Shown piece after piece: positions 3,366 through 62,246 of a DNA stretch of 64,000 nucleotides. Each line of letters starts with the position of its first letter. The stretch's first letter is position 1. The translations under genes were made by a program, and so were the position numbers. The notes under the pieces are model-generated. The model was not told where the DNA came from. It made no database searches and saw nothing but the letters and a program-made list of their open reading frames with translations. This DNA comes from an uncultured Candidatus Binatia bacterium (GTDB taxonomy: Bacteria; Desulfobacterota; Binatia; Bin18): NCBI GenBank assembly GCA_965207575.1, contig OZ242288.1, positions 2,941,467 to 3,005,466 of the forward strand, read 5' to 3'.

Positions 3366-3678
3366 ACTCGCAGATTTTCCTTTTTGCCATTAGGGTTAGC
3401 ATAAGCTCGGCGGTTCCTACAGCCTGGAACATCTGTTTTTGACTATACTCAATAATTTTTTGGTATAGCCGAAGCCCGACATATAGCTCTGACAAAAAGT
3501 GGGAGATGTATCATTTAGATGAATGAGTTCTTGCGAGGTGTGAGATCCGGGAGGACCGGGGGAGACTGTGGAGTTAAACGGCGAAGGGCTTATCGACCCA
3601 CGCCAGGCTCACGGACTCCTCCCAGGTGTGCTAGGAGGAGGAGCGAAATTCTCAGTGAATGTCTCAAGGAGGTGTTTC

Positions 3679-4545
3679 ATGCGGATAAAGCACGTCGTGT
3701 GTGGTCTGGTCGTGGTTGCTCTGATGGGCGGAGGCAGCTCTCAGGCGACGGCCGAGTTTTTCCCCTGGTGGGCGTTTGACAGTGTCATTGAGGAGGTTCA
3801 GGACCGGGGGACGCTGAGAGTCGGGCTCGGGCTGTTCCCGCCTGGGTCAGCCTGTAATGCCGACGGCGAGTTGGTCGGCTTCGAGATTGATGTGGCGACC
3901 AAAATAGCCGCAGACATGGAGGTTGAAATCGAATTTGTGCCGACGAACTGGAACTATATTATCCCGTCACTGATCGCGGAGGAGTTTGATATCATTAGTG
4001 GGATGACGATCCTGCCACACCGCAACCTCAAGGTCAATTTCACGTCCCCCTACAATGCGACCGGCATCTATCTGGTGGCGAATATGGAGGAAAGCGCAGA
4101 CCTGGAAACACTGGCAGATTTTAACCGGGCCGCTGTCACGATTGCGACCCGCCGCGGTGCCTCGTCCATCCCCGCGATCAGGAATGTATTTCCTCATGCC
4201 ACGTTACGGCTCTTCGACGCAGACACCGAGGTCCTCCAAGCGGTCGTCGCTGGTGAGGTTCATGCTGTGGCAGCGTTCGCGACGGCGCGGACCAGATGGG
4301 TTGAGGCTCACCCGGAGACGCTGCATGTGCCCTTCGAGGAGCCATTTGCCTCGGTCGTGTTAGCATGGGCCGTGCGCAAAGGGGACCTCGATACCCTCAA
4401 TTTCTTCAACAGTTGGATTACGGTCAACCAGGCGAACGGCTGGCTTGAGCAACGCCGCCAGTATTGGTTCGAGGGCCGCGAGTGGGAGGGTCGGGTCGCG
4501 ACCGATCCTGAAACCGTTGCCGCGTGCGATGAATCGTTTCAATAG
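3679..4545 (+). CDS. Periplasmic substrate-binding protein, family 3 (amino-acid ABC-type SBP), copy 1
   Basis: Signal peptide MRIKHVVCGLVVVAL; SBP_bac_3-like sequence. AAGGAGG ribosome-binding site 7 nt upstream. Start taken at the internal Met (3679) because the paralog starts there. Confidence 0.7.
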   Translation: MRIKHVVCGLVVVALMGGGSSQATAEFFPWWAFDSVIEEVQDRGTLRVGLGLFPPGSACNADGELVGFEIDVATKIAADMEVEIEFVPTNWNYIIPSLIAEEFDIISGMTILPHRNLKVNFTSPYNATGIYLVANMEESADLETLADFNRAAVTIATRRGASSIPAIRNVFPHATLRLFDADTEVLQAVVAGEVHAVAAFATARTRWVEAHPETLHVPFEEPFASVVLAWAVRKGDLDTLNFFNSWITVNQANGWLEQRRQYWFEGREWEGRVATDPETVAACDESFQ

Positions 4546-4612
4546 TGGGCTGCGGGTCAGGCCGCCCGGATAAGGGGCGAAATTCCAGGCGCATGTCTCA
4601 AGGAGGTGTTTC

Positions 4613-5482
4613 ATGCGGATAAAGCACGTCGTGTGTGGTCTGGTCGTGATTGCTCTGATTGGTGGTACTAGCTCGCGCGCGCCGGCCGAGTTTTTCCCGT
4701 GGTGGGCGTTTGACAGCGTCCTTGAGGAGGTCCAGGACCGGGGGACGCTGAGAGTCGGACTCGGCCTGTTCGAGCCCGAGTCGTTCTGCAATGCCAACGG
4801 CGAGTTGATCGGCTTCGAGATTGATGTGGCGACCAAACTGGCCGAGGACATGGGGGTGGAGATCGAATTTGCGCGGACGAACTGGAACTATATCATCTCG
4901 GAACTGCTCGCGGAGGAGTTTGATGTCATTATCAGCGGGATGCAAATCCTGCCGGACCGCAATCTCCGGGTCAATTTCACCTCCCCGTACAATGCGACCG
5001 GGACCTTCCTCGTGGCGAATAGTGCACAAACCACAGACCTGGCAACGCTGGCCGATTTCAACCGTGCCAGTGTCACGATTGCGGTCCGGCGGGGAGTAGC
5101 GTCCATCCCTGCGATTGAGACTGTGTTTCCTGAGGCCATGCTCCTGCTCTTTGACACCGACACCGAGGTCCTCCAAGCCGTCATCGCCGGTGACGCCCAT
5201 GCCGCGGCAGCGTTTGCGACGACGCGGACCACGTGGGTGGAAGCCCACCCGGAGACCCTGCATATGCCCTTCGAGGAGCCATTTGCCTCGGGCGTGGCGG
5301 GCATGGGTGTGCGCAAAGGGGACCTGGATACCTTAAATTTCTTCAACAGTTGGATTACGGTCAACCAGGCGAACGGCTGGCTCGAGCAGCGCCGCCAGTA
5401 TTGGTTCGAGGGCCGCGAGTGGGAGGGTCGGGTCGCGACCGATCCGGACACCGTTGCTGCGTGCGACGACTCATTTCAATAG
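4613..5482 (+). CDS. Periplasmic substrate-binding protein, family 3, copy 2 (tandem paralog)
   Basis: About 80% identical to copy 1 across its length, including the duplicated ribosome-binding site and leader (gtctcaaggaggtgtttcATG). Confidence 0.7.
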   Translation: MRIKHVVCGLVVIALIGGTSSRAPAEFFPWWAFDSVLEEVQDRGTLRVGLGLFEPESFCNANGELIGFEIDVATKLAEDMGVEIEFARTNWNYIISELLAEEFDVIISGMQILPDRNLRVNFTSPYNATGTFLVANSAQTTDLATLADFNRASVTIAVRRGVASIPAIETVFPEAMLLLFDTDTEVLQAVIAGDAHAAAAFATTRTTWVEAHPETLHMPFEEPFASGVAGMGVRKGDLDTLNFFNSWITVNQANGWLEQRRQYWFEGREWEGRVATDPDTVAACDDSFQ

Positions 5483-5515: not shown

Positions 5516-5666
5516 CTAGAGCAAATTACGATGCTGTGTAGCCGCCCGTCATTCCTGCGCAAGCAGGAATCCAGGCCCTCGGCCTCCCTGGCCGCTGGAT
5601 GCCGGATCAAGTCCGGCATGACGAGAGCGGACTGGTACGACTACAACGTATCGTAAACCGCTCTAG
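5516..5666 (+). repeat. MITE-like structured repeat, copy A
   Basis: Terminal inverted repeats CTAGAGCAAATTACGAT / ATCGTAAACCGCTCTAG. Internal hairpin modules CATTCCTGC-GCAA-GCAGGAATC and GCCGGA-TCAAG-TCCGGC. Same modules recur at about 43965, 45758, 48849 and 62085. Confidence 0.55.
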
Positions 5667-6151
5667 CCAACAAAGAGTGTGTAGGGTTTGCCGTTCAGAT
5701 GAATGAGTTCTTGCGGGGCCAGCAGGCATTTTTCCTGGGAGAGCACGCGGCTGGCGATCTCCCGATTGATGGGCGGCACCTGCTCCAATTGCTCAATCTG
5801 CTCCAGGGTCAAATACTCGGCGCGGTCAACCTCTTCCATATCTGGCTGCGGCTCACCGCGCAGCGGTTTCATCAGCAGGACGATGTACAGGCTGTTGCCA
5901 ATGTCGGGATCACACCGATTCCGCAGGCCAATGACGCCCTGCACCTCTCCGGTCACGCCGGCTTCCTCGCGGACCTCGCGGACGACGGCCCGCTCGATGG
6001 TTTCGTCCGGCTCGACAAAGCCGCCCGGAACCTGCCAGTTCCCCCTACCCCGCCGTGAGGCGCGGCGCACGAGCAGCAGACGGTTGTCGCGCACGACCGC
6101 GCCACCAACGCCAAGGTTGTAGCCACGGTTATACCGTTCGGGGATGGGCAT
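5663..6151 (-). CDS. NUDIX hydrolase
   Basis: NUDIX box GGFVEPDETIERAVVREVREEAGV (GX5EX7REVXEEXGU). Confidence 0.8.
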   Translation of the reverse strand: MPIPERYNRGYNLGVGGAVVRDNRLLLVRRASRRGRGNWQVPGGFVEPDETIERAVVREVREEAGVTGEVQGVIGLRNRCDPDIGNSLYIVLLMKPLRGEPQPDMEEVDRAEYLTLEQIEQLEQVPPINREIASRVLSQEKCLLAPQELIHLNGKPYTLFVG

Positions 6152-19815: not shown

Positions 19816-19836
19816 ACGTTTCTCCTCATGTTTATG

Positions 19837-19857
19837 CCTTCTCCCGCGGGGAGAGGG
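19837..19857. promoter_or_regulatory. Intercistronic hairpin CCTTCTCCC-GCG-GGGAGAGGG, 5' of the RidA ribosome-binding site
   Basis: Inverted repeat read directly. Member of the recurring CCCTCTCCC/GGGAGAGGG hairpin family (also at 21538-21564 and 60774-60794). Confidence 0.4.
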
Positions 19858-19865
19858 TTTTCTCG

Positions 19866-23274: not shown

Positions 23275-23340
23275 GGGGGTTAGGGGCTAGGGGTTGGGGG
23301 TTGGATTTGTTCATCCCTAACCCCCAACCCCTAGCCCCCA
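23275..23340. promoter_or_regulatory. 56-nt perfect palindromic G-rich hairpin with G-quadruplex-capable GGGGTTAGGGGCTAGGGGTTGGGGG motif, between the CoA-transferase and D-aminoacylase genes, just 5' of the aminoacylase ribosome-binding site
   Basis: Arms 23283-23302 and 23319-23338 are perfectly complementary (20 bp). The loop itself contains GGAT/ATCC pairing. Confidence 0.6.
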
Positions 23341-23351
23341 GTCCCTCATTC

Positions 23352-31751: not shown

Positions 31752-32004
31752 GTCGCTTCCTCCAAAGTTCTCCTCAAACGCTTTTCCCGATGTCTCTTGG
31801 TGGGATTGGGGTGATTCCGAGCTGCATAGGTGAAGCCTGAGGGCATCGGGCCAACAGTCCACTCCCTAAACAAAACATCACAAAAGTCAACCTGGCGACC
31901 GCTCGCCATGAGCACTGGGACGCGCTCAGAAAGCGCGGGATGGACTCTCACGTATCCTGGAGAGAGACGGTCGGCTTACGCTACACCAAGCCGGTCTACG
32001 GGAC

Positions 32005-32322
32005 TTGACGAAGCGTAACGTTTATCGTTACGCTTCGTTCGTGATCAAGACCTTCGCCGACAAGCACACCGCAGCGGTCTTTGCGGGTCACGCCGTTCGT
32101 GGCTTACCCATGCAGATGCAGCGACGGGCACGGGCGAAGCTCCTGGCGATTGAGGCCGCCGCTCAGCTTGATGATCTGCGGGTACCGCCCGGTAATCGAT
32201 TGGAAGCATTACGGGGCGATCGGCGAGGGCGGTATAGCCTGCGTATAAACGACCAATGGCGTATCTGTTTTGTCTGGCGCGCTGGTGATGCCTGGGAGGT
32301 CGAGATCGTTGACCACCACTGA
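32005..32322 (+). CDS. higB: HigB-family toxin (RelE/ParE superfamily)
   Basis: C-terminal RGDRRGRYSLRINDQWRICFVW...EVEIVDHH matches HigB/killer-protein pattern. The true start may be the GTG at 32041. Confidence 0.6.
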   Translation: MTKRNVYRYASFVIKTFADKHTAAVFAGHAVRGLPMQMQRRARAKLLAIEAAAQLDDLRVPPGNRLEALRGDRRGRYSLRINDQWRICFVWRAGDAWEVEIVDHH

Positions 32323-35250: not shown

Positions 35251-35279
35251 GCGTCGCCTATGTCGATCAAGTCCCGTAG
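35247..35279 (+). pseudogene. Remnant (10 codons, MSVAYVDQVP*) of the partner toxin gene; ATGA-coupled to the Phd stop
   Basis: ATG overlaps the antitoxin TGA as in intact TA operons. The reading frame ends at a TAG that forms the first bases of the GTCGGATTA hairpin. Confidence 0.35.
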
Positions 35280-35305
35280 GTCGGATTAGCGTAGCGTAAT
35301 CCGAC
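35280..35305. repeat. Hairpin GTCGGATTA-N8-TAATCCGAC immediately 3' of D-aminoacylase 2
   Basis: Same stem as 21463-21489. Confidence 0.5.
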
Positions 35306-43964: not shown

Positions 43965-44140
43965 CCACACCAGAGCAAATAACGATACTGTGTAGCCATC
44001 CGTCATTCCTGCGCAAGAACGTCACCCCGGCCCAAGAGCCGGGGCAGGAATCCAGGCCCCTGGCCCCCCCGGTTTCTGGATGCCGGATCAAAGCCTGCCC
44101 CGGACATGATCCGGGGTCCGGCATGACAAGAGTGTACTGA
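43965..44140 (+). repeat. MITE-like structured repeat, copy B (with nested extra hairpins)
   Basis: Shares CAGAGCAAATAACGAT...GTAGCC.TCCGTCATTCCTGCGCAAG...GCAGGAATCCAGG and GGATGCCGGATCA...TCCGGCATGAC modules with copies A, C and E. Confidence 0.5.
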
Positions 44141-44292
44141 CAACGAACAACAGCAGCGTTTACACTCCGCCGCTCAACAATGTTTCGGAACGCTGAACAG
44201 TGGAGGCTCCGATCTGGCAACGCTGGCGAAAGAGCGGGTTCGTCGAAAAATTCGAGAGCAACCTACACGCCCACGGACCCATTGAGACGTCT

Positions 44293-45757: not shown

Positions 45758-46040
45758 CTAGCGCGTTTCACGATGCTATGTAGCCGCCCGTCATGCCTGT
45801 GAAAGAACGTCACCCCTGTGCAAGCAGGGGCAGGAATCCAGGTTTCCCACCCCCCGGACAGACCCTTCGACAAGCTCAGGCCAGGCCCTTCGACTTCGCT
45901 CCGCTACGCTCAGGACAAACGTGAAGCCGTTCGTGCTGAGCGTAGCCCGCAAGGGCGGAGTCGAAGCAGGGAGGCCGGATCACGTCCGGCATGATGGAGG
46001 GAAGCGGCTGGCTCTACGGCATCGTGAATTGCTCTAGCGC
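45758..46040 (+). repeat. MITE-like structured repeat, copy C (longest, about 283 bp)
   Basis: Terminal inverted repeats CTAGCGCGTTTCACGATG / CATCGTGAATTGCTCTAG; contains a long internal hairpin. Confidence 0.55.
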
Positions 46041-46181: not shown

Positions 46182-48659
<2,478 letters not shown>

Positions 48660-48848
48660 AGCCTATTCCCCTTTGGGTCATGTCTCCGGTTGAACAATGC
48701 TGACCTGCCCATGTCGGCCCCCGTGCGCACGGGGAGCCCCTGACCAGCCTCCCGTACATCATGACCACCCGTTTGTCCCTATGAGAACTACTAGGGTCAG
48801 AAAGAATTATGAGGCGCGGGCGGCGCGGCGCTCAAGGCGAACGCCGCG

Positions 48849-48928
48849 CCTGCCCCGGACACGATCCGGGGTCCGGCATGACGAACACGTACTGGCGCGG
48901 CTCCAACGTATCGTGCAACGCGCTAGCC
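48849..48928 (+). repeat. Partial MITE-like repeat, copy D (3' half only)
   Basis: GCCTGCCCCGGACACGATCCGGGGTCCGGCATGACGAA...TATCGTGCAACGCGCTAGCC. It lies at the junction of the tandem protease duplication. Confidence 0.45.
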
Positions 48929-48997
48929 AGAGCAGGGGTCGCCCCCGCAGCGCATCGGGCTCCGCGCGCACGCGGGTGCCGGGTATCCCGCCCGGTC

Positions 48998-51979
48998 TTA
49001 GGGTGTGGCATATACCTTGTACGAACTGATCTGGTTGTTCAGCCCGTACGCGCCCAAACCGACCGCCTGCGGCCCCACGAAGGTCTGCGTCGGGCCACCG
49101 AAGGCCCAGTCGCGGAACACCTCTACGGTATAGCCCGCCCCGATGCGGAGACTGGAGACCCGATCGTTGTGCGTCCCCCCGATCCACGCCACCTCCACCG
49201 GGCCCGTATGCACGATCTCCCAGCCGCCCGCCCCATTCACCCCCTGGTCCCGTAACACCAGCGCTTCGGCCGCCACGGGCGTGGCATACAGCTTGTACGA
49301 ACTGATCTGGTTGTCCAGCCCGGACCCGGCCAAATCCACCGTCTGCGGCCCGACATAGGTCAGCCGTGCCCCCGTGTAGTTCCAATGGCGGAACACCTGC
49401 ACGGTATAGCCATCCCCGATGAGGAGGCTGGAGACCGCATCATTGTGCGCCCCCCCCATCTCCGCCACCTCCACCGGACCCGGATGCGCGGTCTCCCAGC
49501 CGCCCGCCTCCGCCGGTCCATGTTCCCGCAACATCAGCGCCGGCGCGACATATACCTTGTACGAGCTGATATCGTTGTTCAGCGTATCCCCGGCCAAATC
49601 CACTGTCTGTGGCCCGATGTAGGTCTGCCGCGTGCCCTTGAAGCTATAATAGCGGAACACCTCCACGGTGTAGCCAGCGGCAATGGTGAGGCTGGAGATG
49701 ACATTATTGTCCCCCGGCACGAGCCGGCGTACCTCGGCCGGCGCACTATGCACGATCTCCACCCCGCCTGTCTCCCCCACCCCCTTATCCCGCAACACCA
49801 GTACCTCGGGGGACGTTCCCGCCGAGGTGAGAGACAGGCGGTAAGAGCTGACATCATTGTTCAGGGCGGCCAAATCCACGCTCTGCGGCCCCACGTATCT
49901 CTCCCGCGCTCCCCGGAAGACGTCTCGGCGGAACACCTGCACGGTATAGCCATCCCCAATGAGGAGGCTGGAGACCTGATCGTTGTCCGCCCACCCGATC
50001 CACCGCACCTCGACCGGATCGTCGTGCGCAATCTCCCAGGCGCTGGTCTCCCCCAACTGACTCTCCCGCAACACCAGCGCCTCGGCTACGGCCACAGCAG
50101 GCGTGACGTAGAGCTTGTAGGAATTGATCCGGTTGTCCAACACATGCCCGGTCAAATCCACGCTCTGCGGCCCCACATAGGTCTGCCGCGCCGCCTTGAA
50201 GTTGTCATAGCGGAATACCTCGACAGTATAGCCATCCCCGATGAGGAGGCTGGAGACCTGATCGTTGCGCGCCCCCAGCGACGCCACCTCGACTGGCGCA
50301 GTCTGCGTGATCTTCCAGCCGCCCGCCTCATGCAACCCGTGCTCCCGCAACACCAGCGGCGCGGAGGTCGTAAACGGATCGGTGTTCACAATAATCTCCG
50401 GCAACGGGTCTATTTGGACGGTCTCCTCCCCCAGGGCCAGCTTGACCGCACGGTAGGCGTTGAGCCGACGACCGTCGGCCAGATTCCTCTCCCGTGGATC
50501 GACATTGCCGGCGGCGTCCAGCCCATCGAACGCCTCAATGATGTCGGCGGAGGCGCGGAGCTTGGCCTTCAACTCACCGGGGGTCAGGGTGGGTTTGACC
50601 ATCAACATCAGGGCCGCCACGCCCGCCACTTGCGGGGCGGCAAGAGAGGTGCCTTTTCGATTGTCGTCTAATGTTGGGATCCAAAGTGCCCCGGTGGCAA
50701 TATCGATATGGGAACCATAGGTGGAGCGAACCCAAATGAGTTCCCCGTTATCATCCCAGTCCCGTTCCGTGCCGCCCACCTGTATCACGTTGTCCAGGCC
50801 GGGCCAACATTGCTGCCCACTGAGACTCACCGCAGACGCAAAGTCCGCCGGCAGGTGTACAGCGTCAGCTCCCCCCGATTCCTTAGGGGAATTTCCGGCA
50901 GCAATGACGAACAGCCCGGCTGAATAATCCTGAAGGGCCTGGTACTCTACTATCAACGAGTTGGCCGGCGTCAGACTATAGTCGGTACAGCTCTGATAGG
51001 CATGATAGTGGGCCAGACTCACATTGATAATATCCAACTGGTTGTGCCGCGCGAAATCCACGCCTTGGACGGCGTCCAGCGTGGTGAAAGAGAGATCGCC
51101 AACCCGGATGCCCACAAGCTCGACATCCTGGGCCACCCCGAAGCTGCCATACCCATTATTGAACTCCCCGGCGGCCACCCCGGCCACCAGGGAGCCATGA
51201 TCATCAGAGACAGTATTGGGGTCCGCATCGTGCGTGTCTCCCACAAAATCCCGGCCGCCATTACACGTGGTCATCGCGCCATTCTCATCCCGACAATTGG
51301 TCTTGCTCCATTTCTTCCCGGCTAGATCTCGGTTGCTGAAGTCCACGCCCGTATCGAGTATGCCAATCGTGATGGGTCCGGCCCCAGTGGGCCGGGCCTG
51401 CGCGCGGTCCCACACCTCATCCCACGCATCTCGGAGTTGGATCGCCTTGAGATGCCAGGCCGCACGGCGGCCTGGGTCGGGATTGGAGGTCTGGTCCGTG
51501 GTGTAGGCCGCACTGGTCTGGTGGGGGTAGTACAGGAAGTTGGGTTGCGCGTGCAGCACGCCGGCGAGTGGGCTGGTCTTGAGCCGGGCGATGACGGTGT
51601 GGGGGTCTTCCTCCTCCCCCAGGGCAATCGCTTCGGTCTGGAGGGAGTCGATGCGCGTCATCACCTCCGCCGACGGGAAGCCGTTGGTCCGCAGCAGGTC
51701 ATCGACCACGCCCACCGGCCTGAGTGGAATGTCAACATCAGCCTGGTCCCCCACGAACCCGCCGAGTCCGCCGGGCAACTTGTCCCAGAGATCGTCCAAG
51801 AGGTCTTCGAGATGGGCGGTGTAGACCGTCTCGTCGTATTGAATCAACACCACCCCCATTTCGTAGGCGGGGGCGGCCCCCGGGTCGCCCGGAGTGGGCT
51901 GCGCCAGGACTGAACCCCCCAGGAAGAGCGCGGCGAGACACCCGCCAGCGAGGAAACGCAGGGTTTTCAATAGCAGCAT
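48998..51979 (-). CDS. Secreted subtilisin-like (S8) serine peptidase, tandem paralog with about six beta-gamma-crystallin-like repeats
   Basis: Same architecture as 46182-48659. Start taken at MLLLKTLRF (51979), matching the paralog and the duplicated 5' region. Confidence 0.8.
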   Translation of the reverse strand: MLLLKTLRFLAGGCLAALFLGGSVLAQPTPGDPGAAPAYEMGVVLIQYDETVYTAHLEDLLDDLWDKLPGGLGGFVGDQADVDIPLRPVGVVDDLLRTNGFPSAEVMTRIDSLQTEAIALGEEEDPHTVIARLKTSPLAGVLHAQPNFLYYPHQTSAAYTTDQTSNPDPGRRAAWHLKAIQLRDAWDEVWDRAQARPTGAGPITIGILDTGVDFSNRDLAGKKWSKTNCRDENGAMTTCNGGRDFVGDTHDADPNTVSDDHGSLVAGVAAGEFNNGYGSFGVAQDVELVGIRVGDLSFTTLDAVQGVDFARHNQLDIINVSLAHYHAYQSCTDYSLTPANSLIVEYQALQDYSAGLFVIAAGNSPKESGGADAVHLPADFASAVSLSGQQCWPGLDNVIQVGGTERDWDDNGELIWVRSTYGSHIDIATGALWIPTLDDNRKGTSLAAPQVAGVAALMLMVKPTLTPGELKAKLRASADIIEAFDGLDAAGNVDPRERNLADGRRLNAYRAVKLALGEETVQIDPLPEIIVNTDPFTTSAPLVLREHGLHEAGGWKITQTAPVEVASLGARNDQVSSLLIGDGYTVEVFRYDNFKAARQTYVGPQSVDLTGHVLDNRINSYKLYVTPAVAVAEALVLRESQLGETSAWEIAHDDPVEVRWIGWADNDQVSSLLIGDGYTVQVFRRDVFRGARERYVGPQSVDLAALNNDVSSYRLSLTSAGTSPEVLVLRDKGVGETGGVEIVHSAPAEVRRLVPGDNNVISSLTIAAGYTVEVFRYYSFKGTRQTYIGPQTVDLAGDTLNNDISSYKVYVAPALMLREHGPAEAGGWETAHPGPVEVAEMGGAHNDAVSSLLIGDGYTVQVFRHWNYTGARLTYVGPQTVDLAGSGLDNQISSYKLYATPVAAEALVLRDQGVNGAGGWEIVHTGPVEVAWIGGTHNDRVSSLRIGAGYTVEVFRDWAFGGPTQTFVGPQAVGLGAYGLNNQISSYKVYATP

Positions 51980-52282
51980 AGCCGACTCCTCCTTGGATCG
52001 TGTCTCCTGGTGAAACATTCCGCCCCGTCCAGTTCGGCCCCTCGTGTTTCCCGCTCGGCGACACCGGGCGCACGGGGGGCCCCTGGCTAGCCTCCCGTAC
52101 ACCATGACCGCCCGTTTGTCCCTAGAAGAATTACTAGGGTCGGAAAGAATTATGAGGCGCGGTCGTCAGTGAGAACCGTAGGGTATACATTTCGTAAAAC
52201 CCGTCTTCTCCTGATAATAAGAGGAGGTTCGGCTTGACCATGAGGGGAAACAGTGCGAACCACGAGGAAAAAGGAGGCCAGC

Positions 52283-60740: not shown

Positions 60741-60773
60741 CGGATTAGGCGATTAAAGCAGCCCTCACCCTAA

Positions 60774-60794
60774 CCCTCTCCCAGGGGGAGAGGG
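60774..60794. promoter_or_regulatory. Perfect hairpin CCCTCTCCC-AGG-GGGAGAGGG immediately 5' of the dppA ribosome-binding site
   Basis: 9-bp perfect inverted repeat; same family as 19837-19857 and 21538-21564. Confidence 0.45.
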
Positions 60795-60811
60795 AAACAA
60801 GAGGAGGTCAT

Positions 60812-62043: not shown

Positions 62044-62084
62044 GACCTATATCTATTCTGACACATACGTCACGTCAAACTTCC

Positions 62085-62246
62085 GTTTGCAGCCGTCCGT
62101 CATTCCGGCGAAAGCAGGAATCCAGGCTTCCAGCCCCCCGTTCGTCCTGAGCGTAGCAAAGCGAAGTCGAAGGACTGGATGCCGGATCACGTCCGGCATG
62201 ACGCGAGCATCCCGGAACGGCTAGAGCCTATCGTGAAACGCGCTAG
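62085..62246 (+). repeat. MITE-like structured repeat, copy E (5' TIR degenerate)
   Basis: GCAGCCGTCCGTCATTCCGGCGAAAGCAGGAATCCAGG ... GGATGCCGGATCACGTCCGGCATGACG ... TATCGTGAAACGCGCTAG. Confidence 0.5.

What the first reader, a model, noticed from the sequence alone, without database searches (positions are those of the whole stretch)
5516..5666. MITE-like structured repeat family, at least five copies in this window
Copies at about 5516-5666, 43965-44140, 45758-46040, 48849-48928 (partial) and 62085-62246 share three modules. These are a GTAGCC..CGTCATTCCTGCGCAAGCAGGAATCCAGG hairpin, a GGATGCCGGATCA(A/C)GTCCGGCATGAC hairpin, and a terminal TATCGTGAAACGCGCTAG that is the inverted repeat of the 5' end CTAGCGCGTTTCACGAT. 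Some copies carry nested extra hairpins, giving lengths of 150-283 bp. All are intergenic. In copy A the 3' TIR supplies the NUDIX stop codon. Copy D marks the junction of the protease tandem duplication. This is either a non-autonomous transposable element or a REP/structured-RNA family. It is useful as a marker of genome plasticity and possibly expressed as sRNA.
Basis: seen in the sequence. Interest (0 to 1): 0.6.

Follow-up and report, generated by a model that had tools for sequence, protein, structure and literature searches.

The report
Mobile mini-element carrying nuclease-target hairpins
The five repeats are copies of a ~150-bp non-coding jumping element of the uncultured bacterial class Binatia that lands in the sequence CTAG (often a gene's TAG stop codon) and carries two hairpins matching the recognition sites of a recently discovered family of single-stranded-DNA nucleases (Ssn), which suggests how such sites get scattered through a genome.

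Summary
An HMM built from relatives finds exactly five copies in the window, all on the + strand: A and C are complete, B and E have decayed ends, and D is 5'-truncated. A capped scan of species-representative genomes returned 100 hits in 20 Binatia genomes. Forty-seven distinct full copies all start and end with CTAG and have unrelated flanks.

The ends match, in register over about 30 nt, the ends of IS630-family insertion sequences in the same genomes. Those insertion sequences are also bounded by CTAG. Some copies within one genome are 100% identical. I therefore read the element as an IS630/Tc1-mariner-type MITE that targets TA within CTAG. About a third of copies abut a gene's TAG stop. 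NUDIX orthologues show that the stop codon existed before the insertion.

The new result concerns the core. It consists of two inverted CGTCAT-hairpin-ATCCAG units, one per strand. These match the NTS/Ssn-related motif that SsnA GIY-YIG nucleases cut in single-stranded DNA. Binatia-type contigs encode an Ssn homologue that is 59% identical to the gonococcal protein. Its gene lies between the same hairpins and beside the same terminal repeat. At an orthologous locus the gene is deleted, leaving a MITE-like copy.

Trans-mobilisation and Ssn cleavage are both inferred, not shown. The window itself has neither ssn nor IS630.

The parts
5516..5666 (+). Copy A: complete 151-nt element. CTAG + left terminal repeat 5516-5532; GTAGCC subterminal stem; right terminal repeat + CTAG 5650-5666.
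   Evidence: Sequence; nhmmer profile positions 1-150, E=1e-46; identical copy in metagenome contig L001.
5547..5574 (+). Copy A hairpin 1: CGTCATTCCTGCGCAAGCAGGAATCCAG. It is NTS-like, with 2 mismatches to the published NTS pattern, and those two mismatches form a compensating stem pair.
   Evidence: folds as single-stranded DNA with an 8-bp stem and GCAA loop, z=-4.4.
5595..5623 (-). Copy A hairpin 2. Read on the - strand it is CGTCATGCCGGACTTGATCCGGCATCCAG, the same unit layout in inverted orientation.
5663..5665 (-). TAG stop codon of the NUDIX gene (5663-6151, - strand), lying inside the element's terminal CTAG.
43970..44141 (+). Copy B: old copy with left end CCAG and a decayed right end. 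Hairpin 1 carries nested module X2 (44001-44055). Hairpin 2 carries nested module X1 (44076-44128, - strand unit).
45758..46037 (+). Copy C: complete 280-nt element, CTAG to CTAG. Hairpin 1 + X2 at 45789-45841. Additional nested hairpin modules at ~45842-45969. Hairpin 2 is degenerate.
48848..48926 (+). Copy D: 5'-truncated copy (part of X1, 3' arm of hairpin 2, right terminal repeat + CTAG) in the spacer between the two S8 protease paralogues.
62084..62246 (+). Copy E: left terminal repeat decayed. Hairpin 1 at 62098-62125. Nested module X3 at 62139-62173. Hairpin 2 at 62175-62203 (- strand unit). Right terminal repeat + CTAG at 62230-62246. An orthologous copy (99% identical) occurs in another Binatia genome (L083).

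Best explanation
The repeats are copies of a ~150-bp non-autonomous DNA transposon (MITE) that is abundant across the class Binatia. A full copy consists of CTAG, a 17-nt imperfect terminal inverted repeat, a GTAGCC/GGCTAC subterminal stem, and a core made of two inverted 'CGTCAT - 8-bp hairpin - ATCCAG' units, one readable on each strand. Shown: the ends resemble the ends of IS630-family insertion sequences found in the same genomes, and every insertion is bounded by CTAG. Inferred: an IS630-type DDE transposase supplied in trans cuts the element out and pastes it into the TA of a CTAG site, duplicating TA. Because CTAG contains TAG on both strands and is otherwise rare, many tolerated insertions sit exactly on a gene's TAG stop, which the insertion regenerates. 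Shown: the two core hairpins match the NTS/Ssn-related motif. In relatives, the same hairpins and the same terminal repeat flank an ssn gene, which encodes a 97-aa single-domain GIY-YIG nuclease 59% identical to the NTS-flanked gonococcal protein. At one orthologous locus that gene has been deleted, leaving a MITE-like copy. Inferred: the MITE is a gene-less relative of a terminal-repeat-framed ssn cassette. Its spread plants one Ssn recognition hairpin on each DNA strand at many intergenic sites, mostly at gene 3' ends. Whether the Binatia nuclease cuts these hairpins, and what that does for the cell, has not been shown.
For: Family and boundaries: a capped genome scan gave 100 hits in 20 Binatia genomes. 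The consensus is 150 nt. All 47 distinct full copies begin and end with CTAG, and the bases beyond are random. Recent activity: non-orthologous copies in one genome are 100% identical (L013 and L035), and there are genome-specific subfamilies at 95-97%. Partner: IS630-family insertion sequences of about 1.0 kb, with two ORFs joined at an A8 frameshift site, score 215 bits on NCBIfam NF033545. Their ends are bounded by CTAG and share CTAGAGCnGTTT..C......TGTAGC with the MITE ends, in register. Identities are 19-23 of 31, as high as between the two ends of either element. The IS ends rank 7th and 10th of 954 non-element CTAG sites against a profile of MITE ends. Four more IS copies have the same ends. 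Two of three IS copies share their terminal CTAG with a MITE. The IS630 family uses cut-and-paste transposition with TA duplication, and IS630 itself prefers the TA in CTAG (PMC2170065 and its reference list). Target and stop codon: NUDIX orthologues without the element end at the same residue. About 23 of 66 copies have an end on a gene's TAG stop, and two have both ends on one. CTAG occurs at 0.21 of expectation, and 29% of all CTAG sites are element ends. Copies are enriched between convergent genes (30) and depleted between divergent genes (3), against a background of 117 and 106. Core hairpins: the published NTS is CGTCATTCCCGCGMAVGCGGGAATCYRG, cut in single-stranded DNA by the 94-aa SsnA (PMC11893778). 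In 861 kb of Binatia DNA there are 14 matches at <=1 mismatch and 46 at <=2, and all lie inside MITE copies. A generic unit search finds 168 units inside elements versus 7 outside, and 55 of 83 full copies carry one unit per strand. Both hairpins fold as single-stranded DNA in the same way as the gonococcal NTS. ssn link: 97-aa GIY-YIG genes (Pfam PF01541) are preceded, ending 10 nt before the ATG, by the MITE's right half (terminal repeat + hairpin 2). They are followed directly by an inverted hairpin or a full MITE. The protein is 59% identical, without gaps, to the NTS-flanked gonococcal 94-aa protein. L025 is orthologous to L189 and has a 240-nt deletion inside ssn, leaving a MITE-like copy.
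Against: No empty site at close evolutionary range was found, so TA and CTAG duplication cannot be told apart, and excision or insertion was never observed directly. The similarity between IS and MITE ends is moderate (60-75% over 31 nt, 7 of which are CTAGAGC). The window itself contains neither an IS630 nor an ssn gene. The loci were seeded with a pattern containing hairpin 2 and the right end. This inflates the apparent conservation of those parts and limits what can be said about distribution outside Binatia. The window's own hairpin-1 copies miss the authors' NTS criterion (2 mismatches instead of <=1) and fail my transcription of their degenerate SRM pattern. The ssn cassettes seen have the MITE-type terminal repeat on the 5' side only; no clean repeat-hairpin-ssn-hairpin-repeat unit was recovered. 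Neighbouring copies share orientation 19:5, which simple cut-and-paste transposition does not predict.
Confidence: 0.7

Rival explanations
1. The mobile unit is really the inverted hairpin doublet, a REPIN-like element. It would be moved as single-stranded DNA by a hairpin-recognising enzyme, either a RAYT (REP-associated tyrosine transposase) or the Ssn GIY-YIG nuclease itself. The terminal repeats and CTAG would then be incidental or secondary.
For: The core is an inverted pair of REP-like hairpins. The same 21-mer is treated as the REP of a Group 2 RAYT REPIN in Neisseria (bioRxiv 10.1101/2021.07.10.451892). The Ssn authors note that NTS-ssnA-NTS looks like an insertion sequence. Orthologous MITE copies differ by whole hairpin modules. 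The same hairpin unit occurs in other frames, as singlets, doublets and tandem arrays, in distant bacteria.
Against: All 47 full copies end precisely at CTAG, about 30 nt outside the hairpins, with conserved terminal repeats that match IS630 ends. SsnA cuts only a few nucleotides 5' of the hairpin. In 861 kb, hairpin units are essentially never found outside the repeat-bounded element. No RAYT-like gene turned up near any copy, although I did not search for one systematically.
Confidence: 0.13
2. It is a MITE derived from, and moved by, an IS5-family insertion sequence that duplicates the 4-bp target CTAG, as described for MITEPsy1 of Pseudomonas syringae.
For: The target is strictly CTAG and the element ends begin GAG after TA. 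MITEPsy1 is 100 nt, related to an IS5 element, and inserts at CTAG or YTAA with a 4-nt duplication (PMC3189936).
Against: The ends match IS630-family elements in the same genomes in register over about 30 nt. This includes a TGA positioned 10 nt from the end, as at the 3' end of the IS630 transposase gene. No IS5-type element with such ends was seen in the held loci, though the search was not exhaustive.
Confidence: 0.07
3. It is a family of structured non-coding RNA genes or cis-regulatory RNA elements, and the structure is selected at the RNA level.
For: The fold is very stable on both strands, z about -7.5. 92% of cells pair, with some compensatory changes in hairpin 1. G:T pairs outnumber A:C pairs 50 to 25 on the + strand. 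Orthologous copies are at least as conserved as their flanks.
Against: There is no Rfam match even at E<=10. There is no orientation preference relative to flanking genes, 19 co-oriented versus 14 anti-oriented. Truncated and decayed copies exist. Compensatory changes are few and inherited by subfamilies. SsnA does not bind the RNA form of the NTS. The insertion behaviour with CTAG ends is that of a transposon.
Confidence: 0.04

Closest known systems
IS630/Tc1-mariner-type bacterial MITEs, e.g. RUP of Streptococcus pneumoniae (thought to be mobilised by IS630-Spn1)
   Same: Both are 100-150 bp with no ORF, have terminal inverted repeats resembling those of an IS630-family element in the same genome, insert at TA, have long stem-loop potential, are intergenic, and often lie next to IS copies (PMC2229807).
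   Different: The target context here is strictly CTAG in every full copy. The core is a pair of Ssn-type hairpins rather than anonymous sequence. The host is the uncultured class Binatia. A related cassette carries a passenger gene (ssn).
NTS / Ssn-related motifs with the SsnA GIY-YIG single-stranded-DNA nuclease (Neisseria and many other bacteria; PMC11893778)
   Same: The oriented CGTCAT + 8-bp hairpin + ATCYRG unit is the same. Some Binatia copies match the NTS definition exactly. The hairpins flank a ~95-aa single-domain GIY-YIG gene, in a hairpin-ssn-hairpin arrangement. The protein is 59% identical to the gonococcal one.
   Different: In Binatia the hairpins occur almost only as an inverted pair inside a 150-bp element bounded by terminal repeats and inserted at CTAG. 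The commonest stem has a compensating T-A pair. Hairpin 2 has a different stem sequence. Cleavage by the Binatia enzyme is untested. No such packaging is described in that paper, or in any other paper found in the held library.
REPIN-RAYT systems and BIMEs; neisserial dRS3/NIME
   Same: All involve inverted doublets of REP-like hairpins in intergenic DNA. The neisserial REPIN master 21-mer ATTCCCGCGCAGGCGGGAATC and dRS3 (ATTCCC-N8-GGGAAT) are the same hairpin as hairpin 1 of one Binatia subfamily.
   Different: REPINs have no terminal inverted repeats, no fixed target and no duplication. No RAYT was seen here. NIME-type arrays are absent.
MITEPsy1 (Pseudomonas syringae, IS5-related)
   Same: It is a small MITE that inserts at CTAG (PMC3189936).
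   Different: Its terminal repeats are unrelated (GGAAGGTCTGAAAAAGCC). Its presumed partner is an IS5-family element with a 4-nt duplication.
Mobile insertion cassettes (terminal-repeat-bounded units that carry a passenger gene but no transposase; recalled from my own knowledge, not checked here)
   Same: The ssn gene lies next to the MITE-type terminal repeat and between the MITE's hairpins, as a passenger would.
   Different: A complete cassette with both terminal repeats was not recovered; only the 5' repeat is clear.

Membership tests
Bacterial MITE of the IS630/Tc1-mariner type | Short (<300 bp), no coding capacity, many copies at unrelated sites | tested here: met
   150-nt consensus; 47 distinct full copies with unrelated flanks; capped scan gave 100 hits in 20 genomes.
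Bacterial MITE of the IS630/Tc1-mariner type | Terminal inverted repeats | tested here: met
   The 17-nt ends pair at 14 of 17 positions (12 Watson-Crick pairs, one G·T wobble, with an internal AAA/CAA mismatch); helices 1-2 are 93% paired across 35 copies.
Bacterial MITE of the IS630/Tc1-mariner type | TA target-site duplication | tested here: inconclusive
   Every copy is flanked by CTAG on both sides. NUDIX orthologues show a pre-existing stop at the junction. Because the target is palindromic, TA and CTAG duplication look alike. No close empty site was found.
Bacterial MITE of the IS630/Tc1-mariner type | Ends resemble those of an autonomous IS630-family element in the same host | tested here: met
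   In-register identity of 19-23 of 31; IS ends rank 7th and 10th of 954 CTAG sites; the transposase scores 215 bits on NF033545.
Bacterial MITE of the IS630/Tc1-mariner type | Mobilisation in trans by that transposase | not testable with these tools
   Only indirect evidence: 100%-identical copies at different loci of a genome that carries such IS copies.
NTS / Ssn-related motif repeats | Sequence CGTCATTCCCGCGMAVGCGGGAATCYRG with at most one mismatch (the authors' criterion) | tested here: inconclusive
   14 copies in related Binatia loci meet the criterion. The window's copies A and E have 2 mismatches; in A the two form a compensating stem pair.
NTS / Ssn-related motif repeats | Hairpin in single-stranded DNA with an oriented, unpaired 5' CGTCAT flank | tested here: met
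   DNA folds of window hairpins 1 and 2 and of the gonococcal NTS are alike; unit search.
NTS / Ssn-related motif repeats | Motifs flank an ssn (cd10448-type single-domain GIY-YIG) gene in the same lineage | tested here: met
   L189-L192: a hairpin ends 10 nt before the ATG, and an inverted hairpin or MITE follows directly after the stop. The protein matches PF01541 and is 59% identical to the NTS-flanked gonococcal 94-aa protein. This is not present in the window itself. Assignment to CDD family cd10448 could not be run.
NTS / Ssn-related motif repeats | Cleavage of the motif in single-stranded DNA by the cognate Ssn | not testable with these tools
   Needs biochemistry.
REPIN-RAYT | A RAYT gene flanked by the same REP hairpins | not tested
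   No RAYT was noticed next to any copy, but no systematic search was made.
REPIN-RAYT | No terminal inverted repeats or fixed target duplication; the unit is the hairpin doublet alone | tested here: not met
   Copies extend about 30 nt beyond the hairpins to conserved terminal repeats and CTAG.
Any Rfam RNA family | Covariance-model match | tested here: not met
   No hit at gathering thresholds in the whole window. The best hit at E<=10 is 20.8 bits against a 70-bit threshold.

The most novel reading that the evidence does not exclude
The hairpin pair plus ssn may itself be a self-spreading 'nuclease and its sites' module. In this reading the GIY-YIG Ssn enzyme catalyses the gain and loss of individual hairpin units on single-stranded DNA, which would explain why orthologous MITE copies differ by exactly one 37-nt or 24-nt hairpin module. 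The IS630-type frame would be only a second, borrowed vehicle. That would make Ssn the enzyme of a new kind of hairpin-based mobility, and it would make the MITE a device that leaves both strands of the Binatia chromosome cuttable whenever they are single-stranded.
Probability: 0.12. Interest if true: 0.8.

Novelty: new variant of a known kind. Interest (0 to 1): 0.55.

Why it matters
The Ssn nucleases and their hairpin sites were described only in 2025. How the sites multiply, and what they do outside Neisseria, is still open. This system offers a testable answer for one lineage: the sites travel in pairs inside an IS630-type MITE, and the nuclease gene sits in the same frame. It extends the Ssn/site pairing to an uncultured phylum. 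It also explains a striking annotation pattern, repeats that appear to 'supply' stop codons, as a consequence of CTAG targeting. Finally, it provides a defined 150-bp consensus and profile for masking and annotating Binatia genomes, where these repeats generate spurious small ORFs.

Tried and rejected
1. Rfam, at gathering thresholds over the whole window and at E<=10 on copy A: nothing.
2. Empty sites among the held loci: none. The NUDIX orthologues are all empty but too distant (62-75% amino-acid identity) to define the duplication.
3. Replication-strand bias as the cause of the shared orientation: no link with GC skew, local gene direction or chromosome position.
4. RNA-level selection: G:T versus A:C asymmetry is weak and dominated by one column. 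Covariation is limited to subfamily-inherited changes.
5. Nested modules as independent mobile hairpins: X1, X2 and X3 were never found outside elements in 861 kb. They are therefore treated as internal variants, although orthologous copies differ by them.
6. The published degenerate SRM pattern, as I transcribed it, misses the commonest Binatia stem, so it was not used as the criterion.
7. GIY-YIG search with a YhbQ sequence recalled from memory and with simple regular expressions: no hits. A COG2827-like consensus, also from memory, found the L025 remnant and then real proteins. The recalled sequences served only as leads.
8. PLSDB and the literature were searched for the whole element. Only the hairpin-1 unit has matches outside Binatia.
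9. An autonomous partner was first sought as isolated terminal-repeat pairs, and none was found. It was then found by clustering repeated proteins.
Full report
**The observation.** Exact or near-exact searches give 2-4 matches each, where dinucleotide-preserving shuffles give 0-0.04. I built a profile from canonical relatives and ran it against the window. It finds exactly five copies, all on the + strand.

- A: 5516-5666, complete, 151 nt.
- B: 43970-~44141, left end CCAG, right end decayed.
- C: 45758-46037, complete, 280 nt.
- D: ~48848-48926, only the 3' part.
- E: 62084-62246, left end decayed.

All five lie between genes. A sits between convergent SBP and NUDIX genes. B, C and D sit inside a run of minus-strand genes: an SDR, a 470-aa ORF and two S8 proteases. 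E sits between divergent DUF6364 and glutamine-amidotransferase genes.

**Distribution.** One scan of species-representative genomes, using a pattern for hairpin 2 plus the right end, returned 100 stretches, which is the cap. All were in Binatia MAGs, one of them labelled Thermodesulfobacteriota, from 20 genomes. The canonical element is 150 nt:

CTAGAGCAAATTACGATTCTGTGTAGCCGCCCGTCATTCCTGCGCAAGCAGGAATCCAGGCCCCCAGCCCCCCGGCCTCTGGATGCCGGATCACGTCCGGCATGACGAGAGCGGACTGGCACGGCTACAACCTATCGTAAAACGCTCTAG

Forty-seven distinct full copies all start and end with CTAG, and the base composition just outside is random. This rules out segmental duplication and defines sharp element boundaries. Extra copies turn up in the 8-kb loci at roughly one per 30 kb, and the window has five in 64 kb. 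By extrapolation I infer on the order of 10^2 copies per 5-Mb genome. Non-orthologous copies in one genome can be 100% identical (L013 and L035 in OX638322.1), and one genome has its own subfamily at 95-97% identity. The element has therefore moved recently in some lineages. Copies B and E in the window are old. E is shared, 99% identical, with another species (L083).

**How it moves.**

- I clustered the predicted proteins of the held loci and found an IS630-family transposase in three loci. The L013 copy is a 1,024-bp insertion sequence with an HTH ORF, an A8 slippery site and a DDE ORF. The conceptually fused protein scores 215 bits on NCBIfam NF033545.
- The ends of this IS are bounded by CTAG. 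They read CTAGAGCAGTTTCCACCGTAGTGTAGCGG and, for the reverse complement of the right end, CTAGAGCCGTTTTCATGCTGCTGTAGCGAG. The L035 copy reads CTAGCGCAGTTCACGCTTCCGTATAGCCACC.
- The MITE ends are CTAGAGCAAATTACGATTCTGTGTAGCCGCC and, for the reverse complement of the right end, CTAGAGCGTTTTACGATAGGTTGTAGCCGTG. Copy C's left end is CTAGCGCGTTTCACGATGCTATGTAGCCGCC.
- In an ungapped, in-register comparison the IS and MITE ends share 19-23 of 31 positions. That is as many as the two ends of either element share with each other. Against a profile of MITE ends, the two L013 IS ends rank 7th and 10th among 954 CTAG sites outside elements. The sites ranked above them are themselves unannotated element ends.
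- Four more IS copies, fetched through close homologues of the transposase, have the same ends and CTAG flanks.
- The MITE's right end (..GGC TAC AAC CTA TCG TGA AACGCTCTAG) parallels the 3' end of the transposase gene in the IS (..GGC TAT ACG GAA GCG TGA ACTGCGCTAG). In both, the TGA lies 10 nt from the end. This suggests descent from such an IS.
- IS630-family elements transpose by cut-and-paste and duplicate TA, and IS630 prefers the TA in CTAG (PMC2170065 and its reference to Tenzen & Ohtsubo 1991).

I therefore infer trans-mobilisation by an IS630-type transposase. This step is not shown. No close empty site was found, and the palindromic target hides whether 2 or 4 bp are duplicated.

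**The stop-codon coincidence.** The NUDIX gene ends ...TLFVG-TAG, and that TAG lies inside the terminal CTAG of copy A. About 39 orthologues (62-75% amino-acid identity) from metagenomes lack the element and all end ...LF[VAI]G-stop at the same residue. Two of them end with GGCTAG. The element therefore landed on a pre-existing C-TAG and regenerated it.

This pattern is general. About 23 of 66 classifiable copies have an end on a gene's TAG stop, and two have both ends on one. CTAG is present at only 0.21 of its expected frequency in these genomes, and 29% of all CTAG sites are element ends. Copies are enriched between convergent genes and depleted between divergent ones: 30 and 3, against a background of 117 and 106. 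Orientation relative to flanking genes is unbiased, 19 versus 14. This is what target choice plus selection against promoter and coding insertions would give.

**The structured core.** The element folds as a long terminal stem that closes three hairpins, with z about -7.5 on either strand and also with DNA parameters. Across 35 copies 92% of cells pair. Compensatory changes are few, lie mainly in hairpin 1, and are inherited by subfamilies. Longer copies carry discrete inserts at fixed points:

- X1, a 24-nt hairpin in the loop of hairpin 2.
- X2, a 26-nt hairpin in the loop of hairpin 1.
- X3-type modules in the central loop.

None of these modules occurs outside elements in 861 kb. Even so, orthologous copies can differ by the 37-nt hairpin-1 module and by X1.

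**What the hairpins are.**

- The hairpin-1 unit matched Neisseria in PLSDB. A query with the subfamily form matched many Proteobacteria, including Neisseria, Azospirillum, Photobacterium, Aeromonas, Cupriavidus, sphingomonads and Legionella. It also occurs in other frames in distant metagenome contigs.
- A literal sequence search of the literature led to the 2025 description of the Ssn family (PMC11893778). The 28-nt NTS, CGTCATTCCCGCGMAVGCGGGAATCYRG, encompasses dRS3. It is bound and cut as single-stranded DNA, a few nucleotides 5' of the motif, by SsnA, a 94-aa single-domain GIY-YIG nuclease. Ssn-related motifs typically flank ssn genes.
- The same 21-mer is treated as a REPIN unit of a Group 2 RAYT by others.
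- In the Binatia loci the NTS pattern has 14 matches at <=1 mismatch and 46 at <=2, and all are inside MITE copies. Window copies A and E have two mismatches. In A the two form a compensating stem pair.
- Hairpin 2, read on the other strand, has the same layout: CGTCAT-GCCGGA-loop-TCCGGC-ATCCAG. A generic unit search finds 168 units inside elements and 7 outside, and the outside ones look like chance matches. Of 83 full copies, 55 carry one unit on each strand. The units fold as single-stranded DNA in the same way as a gonococcal NTS.

**The ssn link.** Locus L025 contains the C-terminal remnant of a GIY-YIG protein directly followed by an inverted hairpin 1. A second remnant lies inside a MITE copy, between its two hairpins. 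Using that C-terminus I recovered intact 97-aa proteins (P0220, P0237, P0163 and others; Pfam GIY-YIG). In all four contexts read, the MITE's right half (CTAG, terminal repeat, GTAGCC stem, hairpin 2) ends 10 nt before the ATG. The stop codon is followed at once by one of three things: an inverted hairpin (L191), a full MITE (L192), or an inverted hairpin 1 that is itself interrupted by a nested MITE (L189).

L189 is orthologous to L025. The flanks and the first 15 coding bases are the same, and L025 has lost 240 nt between two GAAAAACAG repeats. This leaves MTEKQ|NPTWRNLYAALV-stop between the two hairpins.

P0220's best matches in PLSDB are in the genomes that carry the hairpin: Photobacterium, Aeromonas, Neisseria and Azospirillum. 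It is 59% identical, without gaps, to the single 94-aa NTS-flanked protein of N. gonorrhoeae. In Aeromonas the hairpin lies 54 nt upstream of the gene.

I conclude that the MITE core is the pair of hairpins that flank ssn, and that the MITE is a gene-less relative of that cassette. I have not shown that the Binatia enzyme cuts these hairpins. I also could not run the CDD assignment (cd10448).

**Rivals.**

- A REPIN/RAYT-like or Ssn-driven mobility of the doublet alone is disfavoured. Boundaries lie at the terminal repeats and CTAG rather than at the hairpins, and hairpins are not found outside the frame. It remains the best way to explain the module polymorphism and is my 'novel case'.
- An IS5-type origin, as for MITEPsy1, fits the target but not the ends.
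- An RNA-gene reading has no positive support.

**Limits.**

- The locus sample was seeded by a pattern that includes hairpin 2 and the right end, and it was capped at 100. Conservation of those parts and the taxonomic range are therefore biased.
- Gene calls come from my own codon-bias model.
- The window has no IS630 and no ssn.
- A clean cassette with both terminal repeats was not recovered.
- Neighbouring copies share orientation 19:5 for reasons I could not find.

**Verdict.** The finding is real and the MITE reading is right. On its own that would be an ordinary new member of a known kind. Two further results make it a new variant. Its cargo is the recognition hairpin of the Ssn nucleases, one per strand, and the nuclease gene occupies the same frame. 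No paper found in the held literature describes this packaging. It makes the open question of how such sites spread directly testable.

Noticed in passing
window, all five copies; loci with two or more copies: Neighbouring copies point the same way far more often than not: 19 same versus 5 opposite, and all five in the window are on +. There is no relation to GC skew, local gene direction or chromosome position. Some genomes have nearly all sampled copies on one strand, which may be an artefact of the capped scan.
   Followed up: partly
L034:7217-7377 versus L047:6082-6157 and L048:6411-6487: Orthologous copies of the element differ by exactly the 37-nt hairpin-1 (NTS-like) module and the 24-nt X1 hairpin. 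Whole hairpin modules are therefore gained or lost, or converted, after insertion.
   Followed up: partly
L014:1420-1568, L084:1693-1786, insert in L022:1115-1428, L034 right flank: A second MITE family has the same IS630-type ends (CTAGCGCAATTCACGCTTCCGTATAGCC) but a different core (GTAGGGTGC...GCACCCTAC hairpins). Chimeras with the first family also occur.
   Followed up: no
L004:2185-3384 and L035:7097-7282; L182 upstream of the IS: Two of three IS630 copies share their terminal CTAG with a full MITE, and one IS abuts a 15-nt fragment of a MITE end. Each insertion regenerates CTAG on both sides and so creates new targets and tandem or nested arrays.
   Followed up: partly
Binatia loci L002-L101 plus window (861 kb): CTAG is strongly avoided: 675 observed versus about 3,144 expected from base composition. 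29% of all CTAG sites are element ends. In this element-seeded sample, TAG is the most frequent stop codon.
   Followed up: partly
L186 (Photobacterium sp. GJ3, NZ_CP073579.1 1581766-1582194): There is a tandem array of NTS-type hairpins with a ~90-nt period, about 8 kb from that replicon's ssn homologue (63% identical to the Binatia protein). It resembles neisserial NIME arrays.
   Followed up: no
L189 and L191, upstream of ssn; L192 downstream: The Binatia ssn gene lies next to a Type ISP restriction-modification gene at one locus, and near a bAvd (diversity-generating retroelement accessory) gene at another.
   Followed up: no
window 31970-32008 and 35267-35305; also inside elements in L003/L069 and L077/L081: Another hairpin repeat family (GTAGGTCGGATTAGCGTAGCGTAATCCGAC type) occurs in the window and is found nested inside some MITE copies elsewhere.
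   Followed up: no
window 23276-23345; 19824-19859 and 60772-60807: A 27-nt G-rich/C-rich inverted repeat lies between two minus-strand genes. There are also two CCCTCTCCCC..GGGGAGAGGG hairpins. These are further small intergenic palindromes of unknown role.
   Followed up: no
window 3568-5482 and 46182-52105: There are two pairs of tandem paralogues: two SBP_bac_3 genes, and two S8 protease genes with 264-288-nt internal repeats (beta/gamma-crystallin / Inhibitor_I36-like). Each protease unit has an element's right end just downstream of its stop codon, at different distances (84 and 11 nt from the conserved flank).
   Followed up: partly
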